Below, one piece after another: positions 38,277-54,616 of a DNA stretch of 54,616 bases. This DNA comes from Candidatus Micrarchaeota archaeon. GTDB taxonomy: Archaea > Micrarchaeota > Micrarchaeia > Anstonellales > Bilamarchaeaceae. The notes under the pieces are model-generated. The model was not told where the DNA came from. It saw nothing but the letters and a program-made list of their open reading frames with translations, and did not search any database. The stretch's first letter is position 1. The number at the start of each line of letters is the position of its first letter. The stretch lies in assembly GCA_040754495.1 (NCBI GenBank), contig JBFMCO010000041.1:1-54616 (forward strand), in the 5' to 3' direction. Position numbers and translations under genes: made by a program.

Positions 38277-38392
38277 GCTGCCACCAAAACAAGTTGCACA
38301 TATATGAAAAAGAAAACTTTAAAAGGTTGTGCCAACGAATCTCTTCTGCCGTTTTCTATACGACAGGAAAAACGCACAGCGAGGATGATGGA

Positions 38393-39178
38393 ATGGGCGC
38401 TTACAAATACATAGCAGAAACCCTGCAGAAGCAGTACAAGGAGAGGGACGCCGTTTACAGGCAGAAGGTCATCGCATGGAGGGCCGGCCCCGCGATAGCC
38501 CGCGTCGAGCGGCCGACTAACATCGCCCGCGCCCGCAGGCTCGGCTACCAGGCCAAGCAGGGATACGTGGTCGTCCGCGCCCGCGTGGACAAGGGCAGGC
38601 GGACGAGGCGCAAGCCCATGGGCGGCCGCAAGCACAAGAACTACTACCGGTTCGTGCAGCCGCAGCTCTCACACCAGGCAATCGCCGAGCAGAGGGTGAA
38701 CCGCCTCTACCGGAACCTGGAGGTCCTCAACTCGTACTGGGTGGGCGAGGACGGCAACTACAAGTTCTTCGAAGTTATACTCGCGGACCCGTCCAAGCCG
38801 AGCGTCAATATCAGCTCGGCAATCAGGCAGGGCAAGGCCTTCAGGGGCCTTACGTCCGCCGGCAACTCGAGGGGCCCGAGCAAGAAGAAGGGCCTGAACA
38901 AGAGGCTGCTCCGGAAGGCGCTCCAGTCGAAGCCCTTCCACTACGAGCCTTACGTGAAGAGGGAGCCGAAACCCGAAACCGCTAAACCCCAAACCGCCGC
39001 TCCCCCGCGCCATCCCAAGCCCCACGGCGGCGAGGCGAAGAAGGCGGAGCCGGCCCACGGGCACCAAGAGCACAAGGCCCACGAAGAGCACAGACCCGAG
39101 CACAAGGCCCCCGTCCACGAGGCGAAACACGAAACGCACCACGCGAAACCCGCGCCTGCCCACGAGCACAAGAAATAA
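38393..39178 (+). CDS. rpl15e: 50S ribosomal protein eL15 with a His/Pro/Lys-rich C-terminal extension
   Basis: MGAYKY, ERPT..ARARRLGYQAKQGYVVVR, IAEQR, LEVLNSYWVGEDGNYKFFEVILAD and FRGLTSAG, followed by a low-complexity tail. Confidence 0.98.
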   Translation: MGAYKYIAETLQKQYKERDAVYRQKVIAWRAGPAIARVERPTNIARARRLGYQAKQGYVVVRARVDKGRRTRRKPMGGRKHKNYYRFVQPQLSHQAIAEQRVNRLYRNLEVLNSYWVGEDGNYKFFEVILADPSKPSVNISSAIRQGKAFRGLTSAGNSRGPSKKKGLNKRLLRKALQSKPFHYEPYVKREPKPETAKPQTAAPPRHPKPHGGEAKKAEPAHGHQEHKAHEEHRPEHKAPVHEAKHETHHAKPAPAHEHKK

Positions 39179-39183
39179 TCCTC

Positions 39184-39636
39184 ATGTTCGACATAATCGG
39201 GTGCCAGGCCGAGCCCTCGCGGTTCGGCTTCGAGCGCTTCTTTTTTTTCCCAGAGGCCCGGGGCAGAATCATCGAGGCCGGGAACGTCACTGCCGCAGCG
39301 GAGCAGAGGAACAGGAAATCCCTCATAATGCTGAAGGATTACGCCTTCGACGAGGGCGCGATAAAGCTCATAGCCGAGAAGAAGAGCCTCTGCTTCCTTA
39401 TCGACCTCGGAAGGCTGATTCGCACGCGCGGCGTGCCAAGGGCAATCGCCCTCTCGAAGCTCCGTACGTTCCTTTCGATGTGCAACCGCTTCGGCGCATA
39501 CTACTCGTTCGCATCCTTCGCAGCCGGCGAAAGCCAGATAAGGACGCCGGACGAGCTCCTGCACATCGCCATGCTGCTCGGCATCAACCGCGGCCAGGCG
39601 AAATTCGCATTGAAGATGCTGAAGCACTACCTTTAG
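39184..39636 (+). CDS. rnp3: Short RNase P subunit Rpp30-like protein
   Basis: PHP-like C-terminal motifs (ASFA.....IRTPDELL.IAMLLG) and the conserved position next to rpl15e. Only 150 aa. Confidence 0.75.
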   Translation: MFDIIGCQAEPSRFGFERFFFFPEARGRIIEAGNVTAAAEQRNRKSLIMLKDYAFDEGAIKLIAEKKSLCFLIDLGRLIRTRGVPRAIALSKLRTFLSMCNRFGAYYSFASFAAGESQIRTPDELLHIAMLLGINRGQAKFALKMLKHYL

Positions 39637-40169
39637 CCGCCGATGGTGAGGGTGAAGGACACCTTTTCGTTGGATATGGGGCACACGCCATCCACGGGGT
39701 CGCCGACGTCCTGCTCGACCTCGACGTCGTGGATTGCGATGCACTTCTCCATCACTGAATAGCACATGCTCGAATGCACGCCGACCTCCTGCATATAAGG
39801 CGGGTCGGATTCGATTGTGAGCCTGATTGTCGCGGCCCCGGAGGTGACGGTGCAGACGCCGCTGCCCTCTATCCTGGTCTCCTGGTAGATGCTCAGCACC
39901 TCGACATGGATGACTTCGTCCTGCATGGTTACGGCGCCCGTCTCCTCGTTCCTGTGGACCGCTTTGGTAACGGTGTTCTTCGACTCTCCCTCCCCCAGGG
40001 TGATGTGATACTCCTTCGCGTTGCATTCAGAGTCTACCGGGCACGGCTCGCAGGCCGTCTGGCCCATCGCCCCGGCGAAAAGAAGCGCTGAAAAAGCCCG
40101 CGCGGGACTTGATTGCCGCACCCTGCTTTCCGGCCTCCTGGCTTTCCCCCTTTCCTCGTGGACTATCAT
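39633..40169 (-). CDS. Putative secreted Cys-rich protein of unknown function
   Basis: Basic N-region, hydrophobic segment, TAC lipobox-like site and several Cys pairs. Confidence 0.6.
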   Translation of the reverse strand: MIVHEERGKARRPESRVRQSSPARAFSALLFAGAMGQTACEPCPVDSECNAKEYHITLGEGESKNTVTKAVHRNEETGAVTMQDEVIHVEVLSIYQETRIEGSGVCTVTSGAATIRLTIESDPPYMQEVGVHSSMCYSVMEKCIAIHDVEVEQDVGDPVDGVCPISNEKVSFTLTIGG

Positions 40170-40206: not shown

Positions 40207-41067
40207 TCACAAGTCCTTCCCGGTAAGCATCCTGAACGCCTGCAGGTACCTCTCGGTCGTCCTCTTCACAACGTCCGGCGGCAGCGGGGGCGGCGGGGGG
40301 CTCTTGTTCCATCCGCTTCTCTCCAGGTAATCCCGGACGAACTGCTTGTCGAGGCTCTCGAGCGCGCCCTGCTCGTACCTGTCTTTCAGCCAGTAGCGGC
40401 TCGAATCAGGCGTGAGCGCCTCGTCTATGAGTATGGTTTTTCCCTCAAGCATACCGAACTCGAATTTGGTGTCAGCAAGGACCAGGCCGCTCTTCCAGGC
40501 GTGCTTCTTTCCCGCCTGATAGAGCGCGATGCTCTTCTCCTTCACTGTTTCGTAGACCTCCTTCCCGACGATGAGCGCCGCATCGCTTTCGCTGATATTC
40601 ATGTCGTGGCCCTTCTCGGCCTTGGTCGAAGGAGTGAAAATCGGCTCGGGGAGCTCGCTCCCGTTCTTCAGCCCCGGCGGCAGTTTTATCCCGCAGACCG
40701 TGCCGCCCTGCCGGTACTCCTTCCACGCGCTCCCGGTTATATAGCCCCGCACCACGCACTCCAGCATGACCGGCTGGCATCTTTTGACCACCATGCTCCT
40801 GCCTTTGAGGAATCCCGGCAGGCCTTCCGGGGGCTTGTCGCTGAGCATGTGGTTCTCGATTATCTTTTTTGTCTTCCTGAACCAGAAGGCCGACAGCCGG
40901 TTCAACACCTCCCCCTTGCGAGGTATGCCCTCGTTGAATACGACGTCGAAAGCGCTCAGCCTGTCGGTCGCCACCATGAGCAGCGAATCATCGAGCGCGT
41001 AGGTGTCGCGCACCTTCCCCTTCTTCACGAGCTGGAGCGAAAGTGCCGTAGAAGTAATGGGTTCCAT
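40207..41067 (-). CDS. purC: SAICAR synthetase
   Basis: GKVRD, TDRLSAFD, ECVVRGY, IFTPSTKA, DTKFEFG, DEALTPDSSR and DKQFVR motifs. Confidence 0.98.
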   Translation of the reverse strand: MEPITSTALSLQLVKKGKVRDTYALDDSLLMVATDRLSAFDVVFNEGIPRKGEVLNRLSAFWFRKTKKIIENHMLSDKPPEGLPGFLKGRSMVVKRCQPVMLECVVRGYITGSAWKEYRQGGTVCGIKLPPGLKNGSELPEPIFTPSTKAEKGHDMNISESDAALIVGKEVYETVKEKSIALYQAGKKHAWKSGLVLADTKFEFGMLEGKTILIDEALTPDSSRYWLKDRYEQGALESLDKQFVRDYLERSGWNKSPPPPPLPPDVVKRTTERYLQAFRMLTGKDL

Positions 41068-41152
41068 GCTTCCAAATCTTTTGCAAGATTTAAAACCCCA
41101 GCCCCCGGGTTACGCTGTTTTATAATTATTATGTTGTAATTGTGTGAGATAT

Positions 41153-41977
41153 ATGCACAAGCAAATGGGTCCCGGAAAAAGCAGCGAGCGACCTGAGGGG
41201 AGATTCAGCTCCTCCAAGCCGCCGCCGAGCGGCCCCCAGGCCGAGCTGAGGGGCGCATTGCGCCTCATGGACCAGGGGAAATTCTACGAGGCCGAGAGGA
41301 AGCTCAACTCGATTCTCGCTGAGAATCCCAAGGACCGGGCGGCGCTGGGGGTGCTCATCCGGCTCTATTCGAAGGCAGGCAAGCTCGCTGCGGCCGAGGA
41401 CGTCTTCGAGTATGTCGAGGACCACGATATCACGGACGCCCCGCTCTGCACAATCATGATAAGCGCCTTCGGCAGGTTCAACCAGTGCGAGGCCGCCCGG
41501 GAGGTATTTGACATGGCGGTGGAACACGGCCTCGCGGATGTCCTGCTCTATAGCGCGATGATAAATGCCTACAAGCAGGCGGGCGGGATGGAGAAAGCGT
41601 GCGAGGTTTTCACGATGGCGGTCCGGGCCGGCATGGCAGACCTTATCACCTACACCTCGATGATAGACGCCTACGGGCGGGAGGGGGATTCGGAGAGCGC
41701 CGAAACGCTTTTCCGCGAGGCGCTGCAGAAGTTCGAGCCCGACGGGCACCTCTACACCGCGATGATAGGCGCCCTCGGCCGCTCGGGGCGCGTTCAGGAG
41801 GCGCGCAGGCTTTTCGACGAGGCCGTCCGTAGCGGGAATGCCGATACGCTGACCTACACCTCGATGCTTACGACCTACAAGAGGCGGGGGCTCATGGCAG
41901 AGGCGCGCGAGCTGTTCCTGGAAGCCAAGCGCGCAGGCTTCGCGGATGACCACATGCACTCGGTATTCTACGGCTGA
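41153..41977 (+). CDS. Pentatricopeptide-repeat (PPR) protein: one TPR-like hairpin plus six 34-aa PPR motifs
   Basis: Repeats such as VLLYSAMINAYKQAGGMEKACEVFTMAVRAGMAD and LITYTSMIDAYGREGDSESAETLFREALQKFEPD follow the PPR consensus (Y.S/T.MI.AY...G....A..+F). Confidence 0.9.
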   Translation: MHKQMGPGKSSERPEGRFSSSKPPPSGPQAELRGALRLMDQGKFYEAERKLNSILAENPKDRAALGVLIRLYSKAGKLAAAEDVFEYVEDHDITDAPLCTIMISAFGRFNQCEAAREVFDMAVEHGLADVLLYSAMINAYKQAGGMEKACEVFTMAVRAGMADLITYTSMIDAYGREGDSESAETLFREALQKFEPDGHLYTAMIGALGRSGRVQEARRLFDEAVRSGNADTLTYTSMLTTYKRRGLMAEARELFLEAKRAGFADDHMHSVFYG

Positions 41978-42885
41978 GGCGCTTTGCCAGCATCCAGTAT
42001 CTGCAACAGGTCCTTCAGCATGTCTATGTTCAGCACCGGCTTGCCGAACTCTTCCTGGTCGTCGACCATCCTGGGGCATGCGGTGTTGATGAAGCAGTCG
42101 AAAACCATGAAATTGTTGAGCGTTATCGGCTCCAGCTCGTTCGCGGCGAGGATTGCCGCCTCGTAGCCCCTCGATTCGAGCTCCTTCTTGGCCCACTTCG
42201 CGTGGATGAGGTTGAACTGGCCGACCTTCGTGCTCACCATTATGCCGAACCTCCTGCACGAGAAGGCCCTTGCTATCGCGCCCTTCCTCCTCCTCTTCAG
42301 CCTCTCTATCTCGTCATTGACCTTCTTGACGCTGGAATCATAGGTGTTGAAGACGAATACGGGCTTCTTCACGTCTATGGCGAGAGGATGGAACATCCCG
42401 TTTCCTACGAACACGATGGCCTCTACCTTCTTCTCAACTTTCTGCACGGAGAGAGCGTCGCACCCGAGGACCTGCCCCTCCTTCGCGGCGAAGTAGCCGC
42501 TTTCCGCGAAAACCTTCTTGCCATGCTTCTCGAAAAACGCCTTCATCTCGTTGAACTGGTGGATGTGCTGTACCGTCGTCGCGAGGCCGATGCTCCCGAA
42601 CCCTTCGATGTGGGGCAGGACCGCGGCAAGCGCCTCGATATCGATGTCGATGTTGTATTCGACGTACTCGACCCGCACGGGGAGGTCGTTCTTCACGAAC
42701 CTGTTGTGCCCGACATGCACGATCTTGTCCGCCTGCAGCCATCTCGCCTCATCCAGCGCTATGTCGCACGCGCCGTAGCAGGGGGAGGCCGAGAGGAACA
42801 CTTCGTGCCCCTCTGATTCGTATTTTTTCGCAAGCTCGAGGCCTCTGCGTTTTAGGCCCTCCGGAAACTGCAGAAGTATCCTCAT
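41968..42885 (-). CDS. dph2: Diphthamide biosynthesis radical-SAM-like enzyme Dph2
   Basis: LQFPEGLK, CYGACD, GQVLGCD and NTACPR supply the three Fe-S Cys. Confidence 0.98.
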   Translation of the reverse strand: MRILLQFPEGLKRRGLELAKKYESEGHEVFLSASPCYGACDIALDEARWLQADKIVHVGHNRFVKNDLPVRVEYVEYNIDIDIEALAAVLPHIEGFGSIGLATTVQHIHQFNEMKAFFEKHGKKVFAESGYFAAKEGQVLGCDALSVQKVEKKVEAIVFVGNGMFHPLAIDVKKPVFVFNTYDSSVKKVNDEIERLKRRRKGAIARAFSCRRFGIMVSTKVGQFNLIHAKWAKKELESRGYEAAILAANELEPITLNNFMVFDCFINTACPRMVDDQEEFGKPVLNIDMLKDLLQILDAGKAPQP

Positions 42886-42974
42886 GAGCTGCACCTGTTT
42901 GCCTCAGGCAGTTGAGGAGCTTTGAACGGAGCGCCGTTCAAACGCTCCGGAAACTGCAACAGGATGCGCATGCC

Positions 42975-54002: not shown

Positions 54003-54132
54003 ACCTGGCTCGCGCTGGAGCATTGGAACATAAAGAAAAATAGAAAAGCGGTGTAGAAAGTGACGGCAAGATGCGCGCGACGGCCCGATATACGGGACGG
54101 AACGCGCAAGAGATAATCTTGGAGTGTTAGCC

Positions 54133-54616
54133 ACATGTTATTAGGCCGTTAGTAACCGCAGGCTGAACAGCTCGGTTTCCCTAGCCGCTTACACCTCGGT
54201 CCTATCAAACGGATCTGCTATCCGTGGCATTTGCCCCCTCGTTTTAAGAGACGCTTCGACCTTAGATGCTTTCAGGTCTTATCGTCGTGGCGCGTGGCTG
54301 CCCGGCAATGCAATTCACAACCGGTCGACTAGAGGCGCCGCATCCCCGTTCCTCTCGTACTCAAGGATGCTTTCTCTCAAGAGGCAACACTCCCAGGAGA
54401 TACTACCGTACTGTCTCGCGACGTACTGAACCCAGCTCATGTGGGACTTTAATGGATGAACAACCCAACCCTTGGCCGCTCCTACACGGCCAGGATGTCC
54501 CAAGCCGACAGCGATGTACCAAACCGCGGGGTCGATGTGTACTCTCACCCGCGACGAGCCTGTTACCTCCAGGGTAGCTTGTCTGACAGCTTGAATCCTC
54601 ATCAAAGGGATTTCAA
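54133..54616 (-). rRNA. rrl: 23S rRNA, 3' part (domains V-VI), continuing beyond the window
   Basis: The minus strand contains TAACAGG, TGTCGGC, the A-loop TGTTC, GAGCTGGGTT, GAGACAG and the sarcin-ricin loop AGTACGAGAGGAAC. The 3' end is approximate. Confidence 0.98.

What the first reader, a model, noticed from the sequence alone, without database searches (positions are those of the whole stretch)
41153..41977. Stand-alone archaeal PPR protein whose code residues predict a G-run RNA target
Seen: six tandem 34-aa repeats (nt ~41336-41947) follow one TPR-like hairpin, with no catalytic domain. Position-5/last residues are G/D, T/D, S/D, T/D, T/D and T/D. Knowledge: PPRs are mainly eukaryotic organellar RNA-binding proteins and are rare in prokaryotes. 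In the plant code, T or S at position 5 with D at the last position specifies G. Inference: the protein binds about five consecutive G, for example G-rich tRNA or rRNA ends or G-quadruplex-prone RNA, or acts on a host or neighbour. The repeats are one residue shorter than the canonical 35.
Basis: partly seen in the sequence, partly recalled or inferred. Interest (0 to 1): 0.8.

Follow-up and report, generated by a model that had tools for sequence, protein, structure and literature searches.

The report
Archaeal 34-residue PPR protein, G-type code
A tiny symbiont-type archaeon (Micrarchaeota) carries its own gene for a pentatricopeptide-repeat (PPR) protein, a kind of RNA reader the literature treats as essentially eukaryotic. 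Its base-reading residues predict a G-rich target, but no target has been found or tested.

Summary
ORF 41153-41977 (+) encodes about 274 aa: a disordered tail, one TPR-like capping hairpin, six tandem repeats of exactly 34 aa and a short capping helix. No catalytic domain was detected.

- **Family:** Pfam PPR scores 128 bits; the best TPR model scores 51. The AlphaFold model superposes on nucleic-acid-bound designer PPRs (Z 22-24).
- **Not a contaminant:** GC3 and codon usage match the neighbours. Seven congeneric genomes carry a full-length homologue in the same purC|PPR|dph2 slot, with dN/dS 0.12-0.26. Three PPR-less congeners have dph2 and purC directly adjacent.
- **34-residue period:** shared with other Micrarchaeota PPRs and with bacterial giant PPRs. 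Eukaryotic hits have 35 residues and form a separate branch.
- **G-run target:** a legitimate code-based prediction, but untested. Only the last two T/D repeats are invariant, and one sub-clade reads GGUAGG. No covarying site was found in 16S, RNase P RNA or the 23S 3' end. G5 runs are too common (about 1,400 per strand) to define a target.

This scan found the same family before on other DNA. I found no paper describing it.

The parts
41118..41125 (+). TATA-like box (ttttataa) in the 85-nt purC/PPR divergent intergenic region, about 28 nt upstream of ATG 41153; suggests a leaderless or near-leaderless mRNA
   Evidence: Read directly from the sequence. Promoter function is inferred, not tested.
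41153..41977 (+). PPR gene (ATG start; an in-frame GTG at 41144 is the alternative), 274/277 aa, stop at 41975-41977
   Evidence: dN/dS is 0.12-0.26 between close orthologues.
41144..41233 (+). Residues 1-30: disordered Pro/Ser/Lys-rich N-terminal tail with no hydrophobic signal segment
   Evidence: pLDDT is below 50 for residues 1-26; sequence.
41234..41335 (+). Residues 31-64: TPR-like capping hairpin (helices 31-43 and 47-60)
41336..41437 (+). Repeat 1 (residues 65-98), degenerate, code G/D
   Evidence: 5 bits; helices 65-77 and 81-93.
41438..41539 (+). Repeat 2 (residues 99-132), code T/D
41540..41641 (+). Repeat 3 (residues 133-166), code S/D
41642..41743 (+). Repeat 4 (residues 167-200), code T/D; T171 is invariant in orthologues, and the last residue is D, or N in one sub-clade
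41744..41845 (+). Repeat 5 (residues 201-234), code T/D; T205, R213 and D234 are invariant
41846..41947 (+). Repeat 6 (residues 235-268), code T/D; T239 and D268 are invariant
41948..41974 (+). Residues 269-277: short C-terminal capping helix
   Evidence: Helix 269-276 in the model.
40207..41067 (-). purC (SAICAR synthetase), the divergent left neighbour; conserved flank of the PPR slot
   Evidence: PF01259, 251 bits; synteny.
41968..42894 (-). dph2 (diphthamide synthesis), the convergent right neighbour; its 3' end overlaps the PPR 3' end by 10 nt
   Evidence: PF01866, 230 bits; synteny; adjacent to purC in PPR-less congeners.

Best explanation
This is a native, selected, accessory gene of a Micrarchaeota (DPANN) archaeon. 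It encodes a small cytoplasmic alpha-solenoid of the PPR type, built from 34-residue rather than 35-residue repeats.

The most likely mechanism is that of P-class PPR proteins. Six helix-turn-helix repeats are capped by a TPR-like hairpin and a C-terminal helix, and they wrap one single strand of RNA, one nucleotide per repeat. The small polar residue at position 5 and the Asp at the last position read the base, and Arg/Lys at position 13 holds the phosphate. The uniform T/S/G + D ladder predicts a G-rich hexamer, with GG at the 3' end conserved in the orthologue group.

Without a catalytic domain it would act passively. It could keep G-rich segments single-stranded, or shield them from RNases or ribosomes in a subset of transcripts.

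- **Shown:** gene reality, PPR-type sequence and predicted fold, the 34-aa period, conservation of positions 5, 13 and 34, and the native, accessory status of the gene.
- **Inferred:** RNA binding, G specificity and the biological role.
For: - **Family scores:** PPR HMMs score far above the TPR models (128 vs 51 bits; 112 bits).
- **Sequence match to solved PPRs:** phmmer against PDB gives cPPR-Telo1 262 bits, dPPRs 180-220 and maize PPR10 176, against 57 for the OGT TPR.
- **Fold:** the AF2 model has pLDDT 88.7. Its eight best structural matches are all nucleic-acid-bound PPRs, with Z 22-24.5 and rmsd 2.5-3.4 A over about 250 residues. Apo PPRs give about 19.5 and TPRs about 17.
- **Conserved reading positions:** over 48 repeat instances in 8 homologues that are only 29-41% identical to this protein, position 34 is D in 44 and N in 4. 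Position 5 is T28/S8/G4/A3/N3. Position 13 is R or K in 39. This is as conserved as the core positions I8, A20, F24 and A27. Seven of the 25 invariant residues are code positions.
- **Code:** TD and SD specify G; GD, AD and CD bind G (PMC6468296).
- **A relative shows code-like variation:** a protein in genome G032 has seven DNA-near-identical 34-aa repeats whose amino-acid differences include positions 5 and 34 (N/T, D/N).
- **Native gene:** GC3 is 0.83 against 0.82 for the neighbours, and codon-usage cosine is 0.93. Synteny holds in seven full-length homologues. dN/dS is 0.12-0.26.
Against: - No binding data exist.
- The repeat is one residue shorter exactly in the loop that carries the last-position Asp, so the code may not transfer.
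- An all-T/D ladder could be inherited from a founder repeat rather than reflect G reading.
- The protein is acidic overall (pI 5.6).
- Six repeats, one of them degenerate, is few for tight binding. This point rests on general knowledge of designer PPRs.
- The predicted site differs between ortholog sub-clades (GGGGGG vs GGUAGG), and no covarying site was found in 16S, RNase P RNA or the 23S 3' end.
- G runs of 5 or more are neither enriched nor depleted in the genome.
- AlphaFold may be biased toward the PPR structures it was trained on.
Confidence: 0.5

Rival explanations
1. It binds RNA with the PPR fold but not through the plant two-residue code. It would recognise a shape or a mixed sequence, as the PPR domain of PRORP does with the tRNA elbow, so the G-run prediction would be wrong.
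For: The 34-aa period puts the deletion right before the code Asp. Code positions at repeats 1-4 drift among orthologues. No G-run target emerged from the stable RNAs compared.
Against: T5, D34 and R/K13 are conserved at core-like levels. The G032 relative varies at exactly positions 5 and 34 among near-identical repeats. The genome has an RNase P RNA and no PRORP nuclease, so a split-PRORP role has no support.
Confidence: 0.2
2. It is a protein-protein interaction scaffold of the TPR kind that only resembles PPRs in sequence.
For: The 34-residue period is the TPR period. The N-terminal hairpin scores as TPR. The pI is acidic. No RNA target was identified.
Against: PPR models outscore TPR models by more than 75 bits. 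The superhelix matches RNA-bound PPRs (rmsd 2.5-3.4 A) much better than TPRs (rmsd 7-9 A). The TPR signature residues G8 and P32 are replaced by I8 and L/A32. The conserved basic position 13 and the polar 5/34 pair are PPR hallmarks.
Confidence: 0.17
3. It binds G-rich single-stranded DNA (replication or transcription intermediates, R-loops, G4-prone DNA) rather than RNA.
For: The best sequence match in PDB is cPPR-Telo1, crystallised on ssDNA (5ORQ). This shows that the fold can read ssDNA.
Against: Nothing in the context points to DNA metabolism: the neighbours are purC and dph2. Natural PPRs act on RNA, by established knowledge.
Confidence: 0.08
4. It is an assembly artefact or eukaryotic contamination.
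For: PPRs are overwhelmingly eukaryotic, and the top summed-score hit is a charophyte protein.
Against: - The gene lies 41 kb inside a 54.6-kb contig among archaeal genes (eL15, Rpp30-like, dph2, 23S rRNA).
- GC3 and codon usage equal those of the neighbours.
- The same slot is filled in seven other genomes of the genus.
- The 34-aa period is that of the prokaryotic hits, not the eukaryotic ones.
Confidence: 0.01

Closest known systems
P-class pentatricopeptide repeat proteins of eukaryotic organelles (e.g. maize PPR10, PDB 4M57/4M59) and consensus/designer PPRs (dPPR 5I9F/5I9G/5I9H, 6EEN; cPPR-polyG 4PJQ; cPPR-Telo1 5ORQ)
   Same: It shares the helix-turn-helix repeat with the PPR consensus (Y4, polar 5, I8, basic 13, G15, A20, F24, A27, G31, D last). 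It forms a tandem array with capping elements and has no catalytic domain. The predicted superhelix superposes on RNA-bound forms (Z 22-24.5). The T/D code pair is the one used in cPPR-polyG.
   Different: The repeat is strictly 34 residues, with one residue missing in the helix B to helix A loop. The host is an archaeon without organelles. The array is only six repeats with a nearly homopolymeric code. Binding is untested.
Other Micrarchaeota PPR proteins of the same order, e.g. the 525-aa protein of genome G032 with seven near-identical repeats plus a roughly 170-aa helical C-terminal domain
   Same: They share the 34-aa period, an N-terminal TPR-like hairpin and the ...TY[NT]xMIDAYGK.G... 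consensus. This protein is 49% identical to the G032 protein over four repeats.
   Different: Those proteins carry a conserved C-terminal domain (HY[PA]RI(L/I)CG motif), mixed N/T and D/N codes, and lie in other genomic contexts. This one is a short stand-alone form fixed in the purC/dph2 slot.
Bacterial giant 34-residue PPR proteins from MAGs (Burkholderiaceae MFN7835243.1, Polyangia HEX2570940.1, Terriglobia MGB7591080.1 and unnamed metagenomic ones)
   Same: They share the 34-aa period, the IDAYGKAG-type consensus and varied 5/last residues. They are 38-39% identical to this protein. In a four-repeat tree they fall on the same side as the archaeal proteins, apart from the 35-residue eukaryotic ones.
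   Different: They are 600-1,800 aa long with 8-17 or more repeats and large non-repeat regions. They are bacterial, and one lies next to transposases.
Tetratricopeptide repeat (TPR) proteins
   Same: They share the 34-residue period and the helix-turn-helix solenoid. The N-terminal hairpin matches TPR_16/19/14.
   Different: TPR HMM scores are much lower. TPR signature positions are not kept. The superhelix geometry differs: rmsd is 7-9 A to CTPR and OGT.

Membership tests
PPR (Pfam PF01535 / NCBIfam TIGR00756) | Scores above the curated HMM cut-off, in several tandem copies | tested here: met
   PF01535 scores 128.2 bits against a cut-off of 25, with 6 stretches. PPR_2 scores 97.5 and PPR_1 88.4. 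TIGR00756 scores 111.8 bits against a cut-off of 20.
PPR (Pfam PF01535 / NCBIfam TIGR00756) | 35-residue repeat unit | tested here: not met
   The step is exactly 34 aa between all six units, here and in all Micrarchaeota homologues. There is one gap per repeat against cPPR and dPPR.
PPR (Pfam PF01535 / NCBIfam TIGR00756) | Antiparallel two-helix units forming a right-handed superhelix like that of solved PPRs | tested here: met
   The AF2 model has pLDDT 88.7 and 15 helices. Foldseek gives TM 0.77-0.80. VIA-align gives Z 22-24.5 and rmsd 2.5-3.4 A to RNA- or ssDNA-bound PPRs. This rests on a predicted model only.
PPR (Pfam PF01535 / NCBIfam TIGR00756) | Polar specificity residues at position 5 and the last position, and a basic residue at position 13 | tested here: met
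   Position 5 is T/S/G/A/N in 46 of 48 repeat instances. The last position is D or N in 48 of 48. Position 13 is R or K in 39 of 48.
PPR (Pfam PF01535 / NCBIfam TIGR00756) | Sequence-specific binding of single-stranded RNA | not testable with these tools
   This needs EMSA, Bind-n-Seq or a co-crystal structure.
TPR (Pfam clan CL0020, TPR_1/2/16/19) | 34-residue unit with the TPR signature (small residues at 8, 20 and 27; P32) and the best HMM score among helical-repeat families | tested here: not met
   The period of 34 is met. The best TPR model (TPR_16) scores only 51.5 bits, and its best stretch is residues 37-91. TPR_1 and TPR_2 fall below their cut-offs. Position 8 is I in 40 of 48 instances, and position 32 is L or A rather than P.
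PRORP-type protein-only RNase P (PPR + NYN nuclease) | A metallonuclease domain fused to, or encoded with, the PPR domain | tested here: not met
   The protein has no nuclease domain. PF16953 was not found in the 80%-complete genome, although the control genomes were also silent. A full-length RNase P RNA match of 71 bits is present.

The most novel reading that the evidence does not exclude
Prokaryotes may hold their own class of 34-residue PPR proteins that read RNA with the same two-residue code as plant PPRs. On this reading, the Micrarchaeota protein is a natural, minimal poly-G/G-rich RNA reader. The class evolves fast by repeat duplication and code-position change, as plant restorer-of-fertility-like PPRs do, and it is gained and lost between congeners. 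That pattern would fit an accessory RNA-targeting role, for example against selfish, viral or host RNAs. The class could also bear on the unexplained origin of eukaryotic PPRs.
Probability: 0.22. Interest if true: 0.8.

Novelty: new variant of a known kind. Interest (0 to 1): 0.6.

Why it matters
PPR proteins are the programmable RNA readers of plant and other eukaryotic organelles. The literature held here states that prokaryotes do not typically possess them and calls the motif exclusively eukaryotic (PMC4029402). No paper in the library links PPRs with Micrarchaeota or DPANN.

A vertically maintained archaeal PPR gene belongs to a 34-residue class shared with bacteria. That shows the fold and its code-like residues exist outside eukaryotes. 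It also gives the question of PPR origin a concrete comparison set.

This member is small (about 31 kDa), has a nearly uniform T/D ladder and therefore makes one sharp prediction: G-tract binding. A few days of biochemistry could test it. If the code holds, 34-residue PPRs are a new scaffold for RNA-binding design. If it fails, that limits how far the plant code can be transferred.

Tried and rejected
- **Target search by covariation.** Clade A orthologues read GGGGG(G) and clade B reads GGUAGG. I aligned 16S rRNA (G000 partial, G021, G014), RNase P RNA (six genomes) and the last 490 nt of 23S. No homologous site switches between the two motifs. RNase P RNA has no G5 run or GUAGG at all. This is a negative for those RNAs only.
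- **Cis target.** The purC-PPR intergenic regions and the PPR/dph2 tails of seven loci share only AT-rich TATA-like boxes. There is no conserved G-run.
- **Genome-wide G-run statistics.** GGGGG occurs 1,832 times against 1,817-1,975 expected, and GGGGGG 397 times against 428-485 expected. There is no enrichment, so this is uninformative.
- **Split-PRORP idea**, prompted by the Rpp30-like gene 1.5 kb upstream. No PRORP nuclease was found, and an RNase P RNA is present.
- **Defence-system link.** There is no PADLOC hit for this protein or for the bacterial giants.
- **Catalytic partner domains in relatives.** Pfam finds none in the Micrarchaeota PPR+CTD proteins or the bacterial giants.
- **Single versus multiple gain in the genus.** The Dph2 tree is unresolved, and one origin is neither shown nor excluded.
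- **Word-indexed protein search.** It returned only three plant-like hits. The exhaustive search was needed.
- **Not attempted:** Complex prediction, because no protein partner is claimed.

Full report
**What is there**

The window is a whole 54.6-kb contig (C41) of a 1.63-Mb metagenome-assembled genome. The genome is 80% complete with 1.5% contamination.

On the + strand, an ORF runs from GTG 41144 (or ATG 41153) to the stop at 41975-41977. The ESM Atlas record of the same protein starts at the ATG. A TATA-like box (ttttataa, 41118-41125) lies about 28 nt upstream of that ATG in the short divergent intergenic region. That is inference.

The protein has these parts:
- a disordered Pro/Ser/Lys-rich tail (pLDDT below 50 for residues 1-26);
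- one TPR-like hairpin (residues 31-64);
- six repeats at residues 65-98, 99-132, 133-166, 167-200, 201-234 and 235-268;
- a short capping helix (residues 269-276).

The repeat step is exactly 34 residues each time. Repeat 1 is degenerate.

**PPR or TPR**

| Test | PPR | TPR |
|---|---|---|
| Pfam | PPR 128.2 bits (E 2.4e-38, six stretches); PPR_2 97.5; PPR_1 88.4 | best TPR model (TPR_16) 51.5, mostly on the N-terminal hairpin |
| NCBIfam | TIGR00756 111.8 bits | - |
| phmmer vs PDB sequences | cPPR-Telo1 262 bits; dPPRs 183-220; maize PPR10 176 | O-GlcNAc transferase TPR domain 57 |
| VIA-align on the AF2 model | nucleic-acid-bound PPRs Z 22-24.5, rmsd 2.5-3.4 A over about 250 residues; apo designer PPRs about 19.5 | about 17, rmsd 7-9 A |

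The phmmer alignments place one gap per repeat, in the loop just before the final Asp. An AlphaFold2 model built from eight orthologues has mean pLDDT 88.7. By Foldseek it matches designer PPRs at TM 0.77-0.80. The model is a prediction and may lean on PPR structures that AlphaFold was trained on.

The protein is therefore PPR-type in sequence and predicted shape, but with a 34-residue unit.

**Native gene, not contamination**

- The neighbours are archaeal: eL15, a short Rpp30-like ORF, purC and dph2, with a 23S rRNA at the contig end.
- GC3 of the PPR gene is 0.83 against 0.78-0.82 for four neighbouring genes. Its codon-usage cosine to 14 long ORFs of the window is 0.93, in the neighbours' range.
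- Seven other genomes of the same genus hold a full-length homologue of 270-286 aa, 29-41% identical, always in the slot purC(-) | PPR(+) | dph2(-). An eighth genome (G012) holds a divergent 431-aa PPR-like protein in the same slot.
- Record titles name these genomes Candidatus Micrarchaeota or Micrarchaeia, and one Ca. Bilamarchaeum sp. (lineage).
- Between close pairs, dN/dS is 0.12-0.26.
- It is the only PPR-matching gene in this genome.

**Accessory gene**

With this protein as query, 12 of 24 other genomes of the genus gave any match. Five PPR-less genomes with at least 90% completeness were inspected. In three of them (G005, G022, G003), dph2 and purC lie directly adjacent on the same strand, which is an 'empty site'. 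A Dph2 tree cannot tell one gain from several gains or losses. A gene missing from many congeners is unlikely to serve a core tRNA or rRNA function.

**Wider family**

PF01535 was searched in 301 genomes of the phylum and matched 17 of them. The matches fall in only two families of one order (12 of 65 and 3 of 14), plus one weak hit elsewhere. The two largest other families gave 0 of 74 and 0 of 54. The 14 control genomes gave none.

Some relatives are striking. The 525-aa protein of G032 has seven 34-aa repeats whose DNA units are 88-100% identical. Its amino-acid differences fall at positions 5, 6, 14, 16, 30, 31 and 34. It is followed by a conserved helical C-terminal domain without a Pfam catalytic match.

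An exhaustive search of 1.84 billion representative proteins gave 18,066 hits. Among the best 150:
- Proteins with a 34-residue period that carry a taxon name are prokaryotic: Micrarchaeia, Burkholderiaceae, Polyangia and Terriglobia. One more lies on a 582-kb bacterial contig.
- Named proteins with a 35-residue period are streptophytes: Closterium, Spirogloea, Chara and Psilotum.

In a quick maximum-likelihood tree of four-repeat windows, the 35-residue rows form one side of a branch (SH-aLRT 97). Archaeal and bacterial 34-residue rows intermingle on the other side. Two caveats apply. The groups were defined partly by the period itself. Trees of repeat proteins are also weak.

So there is no sign of a recent import from eukaryotes. 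The gene belongs to a prokaryotic 34-residue PPR class.

**The code and the G-run prediction**

Over 48 repeat instances (8 homologues x 6 repeats), the counts are as follows:

| Position | Residues |
|---|---|
| 34 (last) | D in 44, N in 4 |
| 5 | T 28, S 8, G 4, A 3, N 3 |
| 13 | R or K in 39 |

This is as conserved as the hydrophobic core (I8, A20, F24, A27). Seven of the 25 residues invariant across orthologues are code positions: T171, T205, T239, D132, D166, D234 and D268. In solved PPR-RNA complexes these positions face the RNA, by established knowledge of PPR10 and dPPR structures. So their conservation argues for a ligand on the concave face.

By the published code, TD and SD specify G, GD/AD/CD also bind G, ND specifies U and TN specifies A (PMC6468296). 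This protein therefore reads G-G-G-G-G-G. Its nearest sub-clade (G021, G006, G011) reads the same. The G014/G002/G001 sub-clade reads G-G-U-A-G-G. G020 reads GG?GG. Only the 3' GG is invariant.

**Attempts to find a target**

- No homologous site switches between G5-6 and GGUAGG in 16S rRNA, RNase P RNA or the 23S 3' end.
- The flanking intergenic regions share no G-run.
- G runs of 5 or more occur 1,435 and 1,361 times on the two strands, as expected from composition.
- The genome has an RNase P RNA and no PRORP nuclease.
- There is no PADLOC match.
- Read-level checks were unavailable.

**Verdict**

The 'stand-alone archaeal PPR' reading is supported, with the refinement that this is a 34-residue prokaryotic variant and an accessory gene. 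The G-run target is a reasonable prediction but untested and only partly conserved.

My best explanation, at about 0.5, is a passive ssRNA binder for G-rich segments that uses the PPR mode. The rivals are:
- RNA binding that does not follow the plant code (0.2);
- a TPR-like protein scaffold (0.17);
- ssDNA binding (0.08);
- an artefact (about 0.01).

**Prior knowledge**

The held literature says prokaryotes do not typically possess PPRs (PMC4029402). It holds no paper linking PPRs to Micrarchaeota or DPANN. The description of Ca. Bilamarchaeum does not mention them.

Earlier reports of this scan described the same Micrarchaeota family on other DNA. My independent results agree with them. This report adds:
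- the syntenic orthologue group and its empty sites;
- the code comparison across orthologues;
- the negative target searches.

Noticed in passing
L025:892-2466 (-), genome G032: A 525-aa Micrarchaeota PPR protein has seven 34-aa repeats encoded by 102-nt units that are 88-100% identical. Amino-acid differences fall only at positions 5, 6, 14, 16, 30, 31 and 34, giving the code ND ND TD ND TD TN ND. A roughly 170-aa helical C-terminal domain follows (motif HY[PA]RI(L/I)CG), shared with proteins of G086, G097 and G307. No Pfam catalytic domain was found.
   Followed up: partly
P0006, P0007, P0011, P0028, P0032, P0060, P0084 (bacterial MAG proteins; L038, L039): Giant bacterial proteins of 600-1,800 aa from Burkholderiaceae, Polyangia, Terriglobia and unnamed MAGs carry 8-17 PPR repeats of exactly 34 aa with varied position-5/last residues. 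One sits beside transposase genes on a 582-kb contig. The ESM Atlas also lists a 77-member Actinomycetota PPR cluster.
   Followed up: partly
L043, L045, L047 (genomes G005, G022, G003): In congeners without the PPR gene, dph2 and purC are directly adjacent on the same strand. The PPR gene therefore sits, in antisense orientation, in what is otherwise a tight dph2-purC junction.
   Followed up: yes
window 41968-41977: The PPR and dph2 genes converge and their 3' ends overlap by 10 nt. Overlaps of 0-20 nt occur in the orthologous loci. Transcripts probably overlap as antisense, and there is no room for a terminator.
   Followed up: no
window 38294-39178 (+): The ribosomal protein eL15 ORF has 294 aa. 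The Pfam L15e match ends near residue 199, and a His/Pro/Lys/Glu-rich tail of about 90 aa follows.
   Followed up: no
window 39184-39636 (+): A short 150-aa ORF matches only the C-terminal third of RNase P subunit p30 (23.6 bits, below the cut-off of 35). Similar ORFs occur upstream of purC in related loci.
   Followed up: no
G000:C61:336-643 (-) (L048) and L054-L058: RNase P RNA candidates of this genus cover the whole archaeal model, but all score below Rfam's gathering score (44-80 bits against 84). This suggests a divergent RNase P RNA.
   Followed up: no
window 54129-54616 (-); G001:C23; G002:C3: The 23S rRNA gene lies 8-12 kb from the PPR gene in this genome and in G001 and G002, which is long-range conserved synteny. 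In the 23S 3' region, this genome has GAGGGGGC where clade B has GAGGGAGC.
   Followed up: partly
window 39633-40169 (-): A 178-aa ORF without a Pfam match has an N-terminal hydrophobic segment and a Cys-rich stretch. It is conserved next to purC in related loci (for example L007) and may be a lipoprotein or secreted protein.
   Followed up: no
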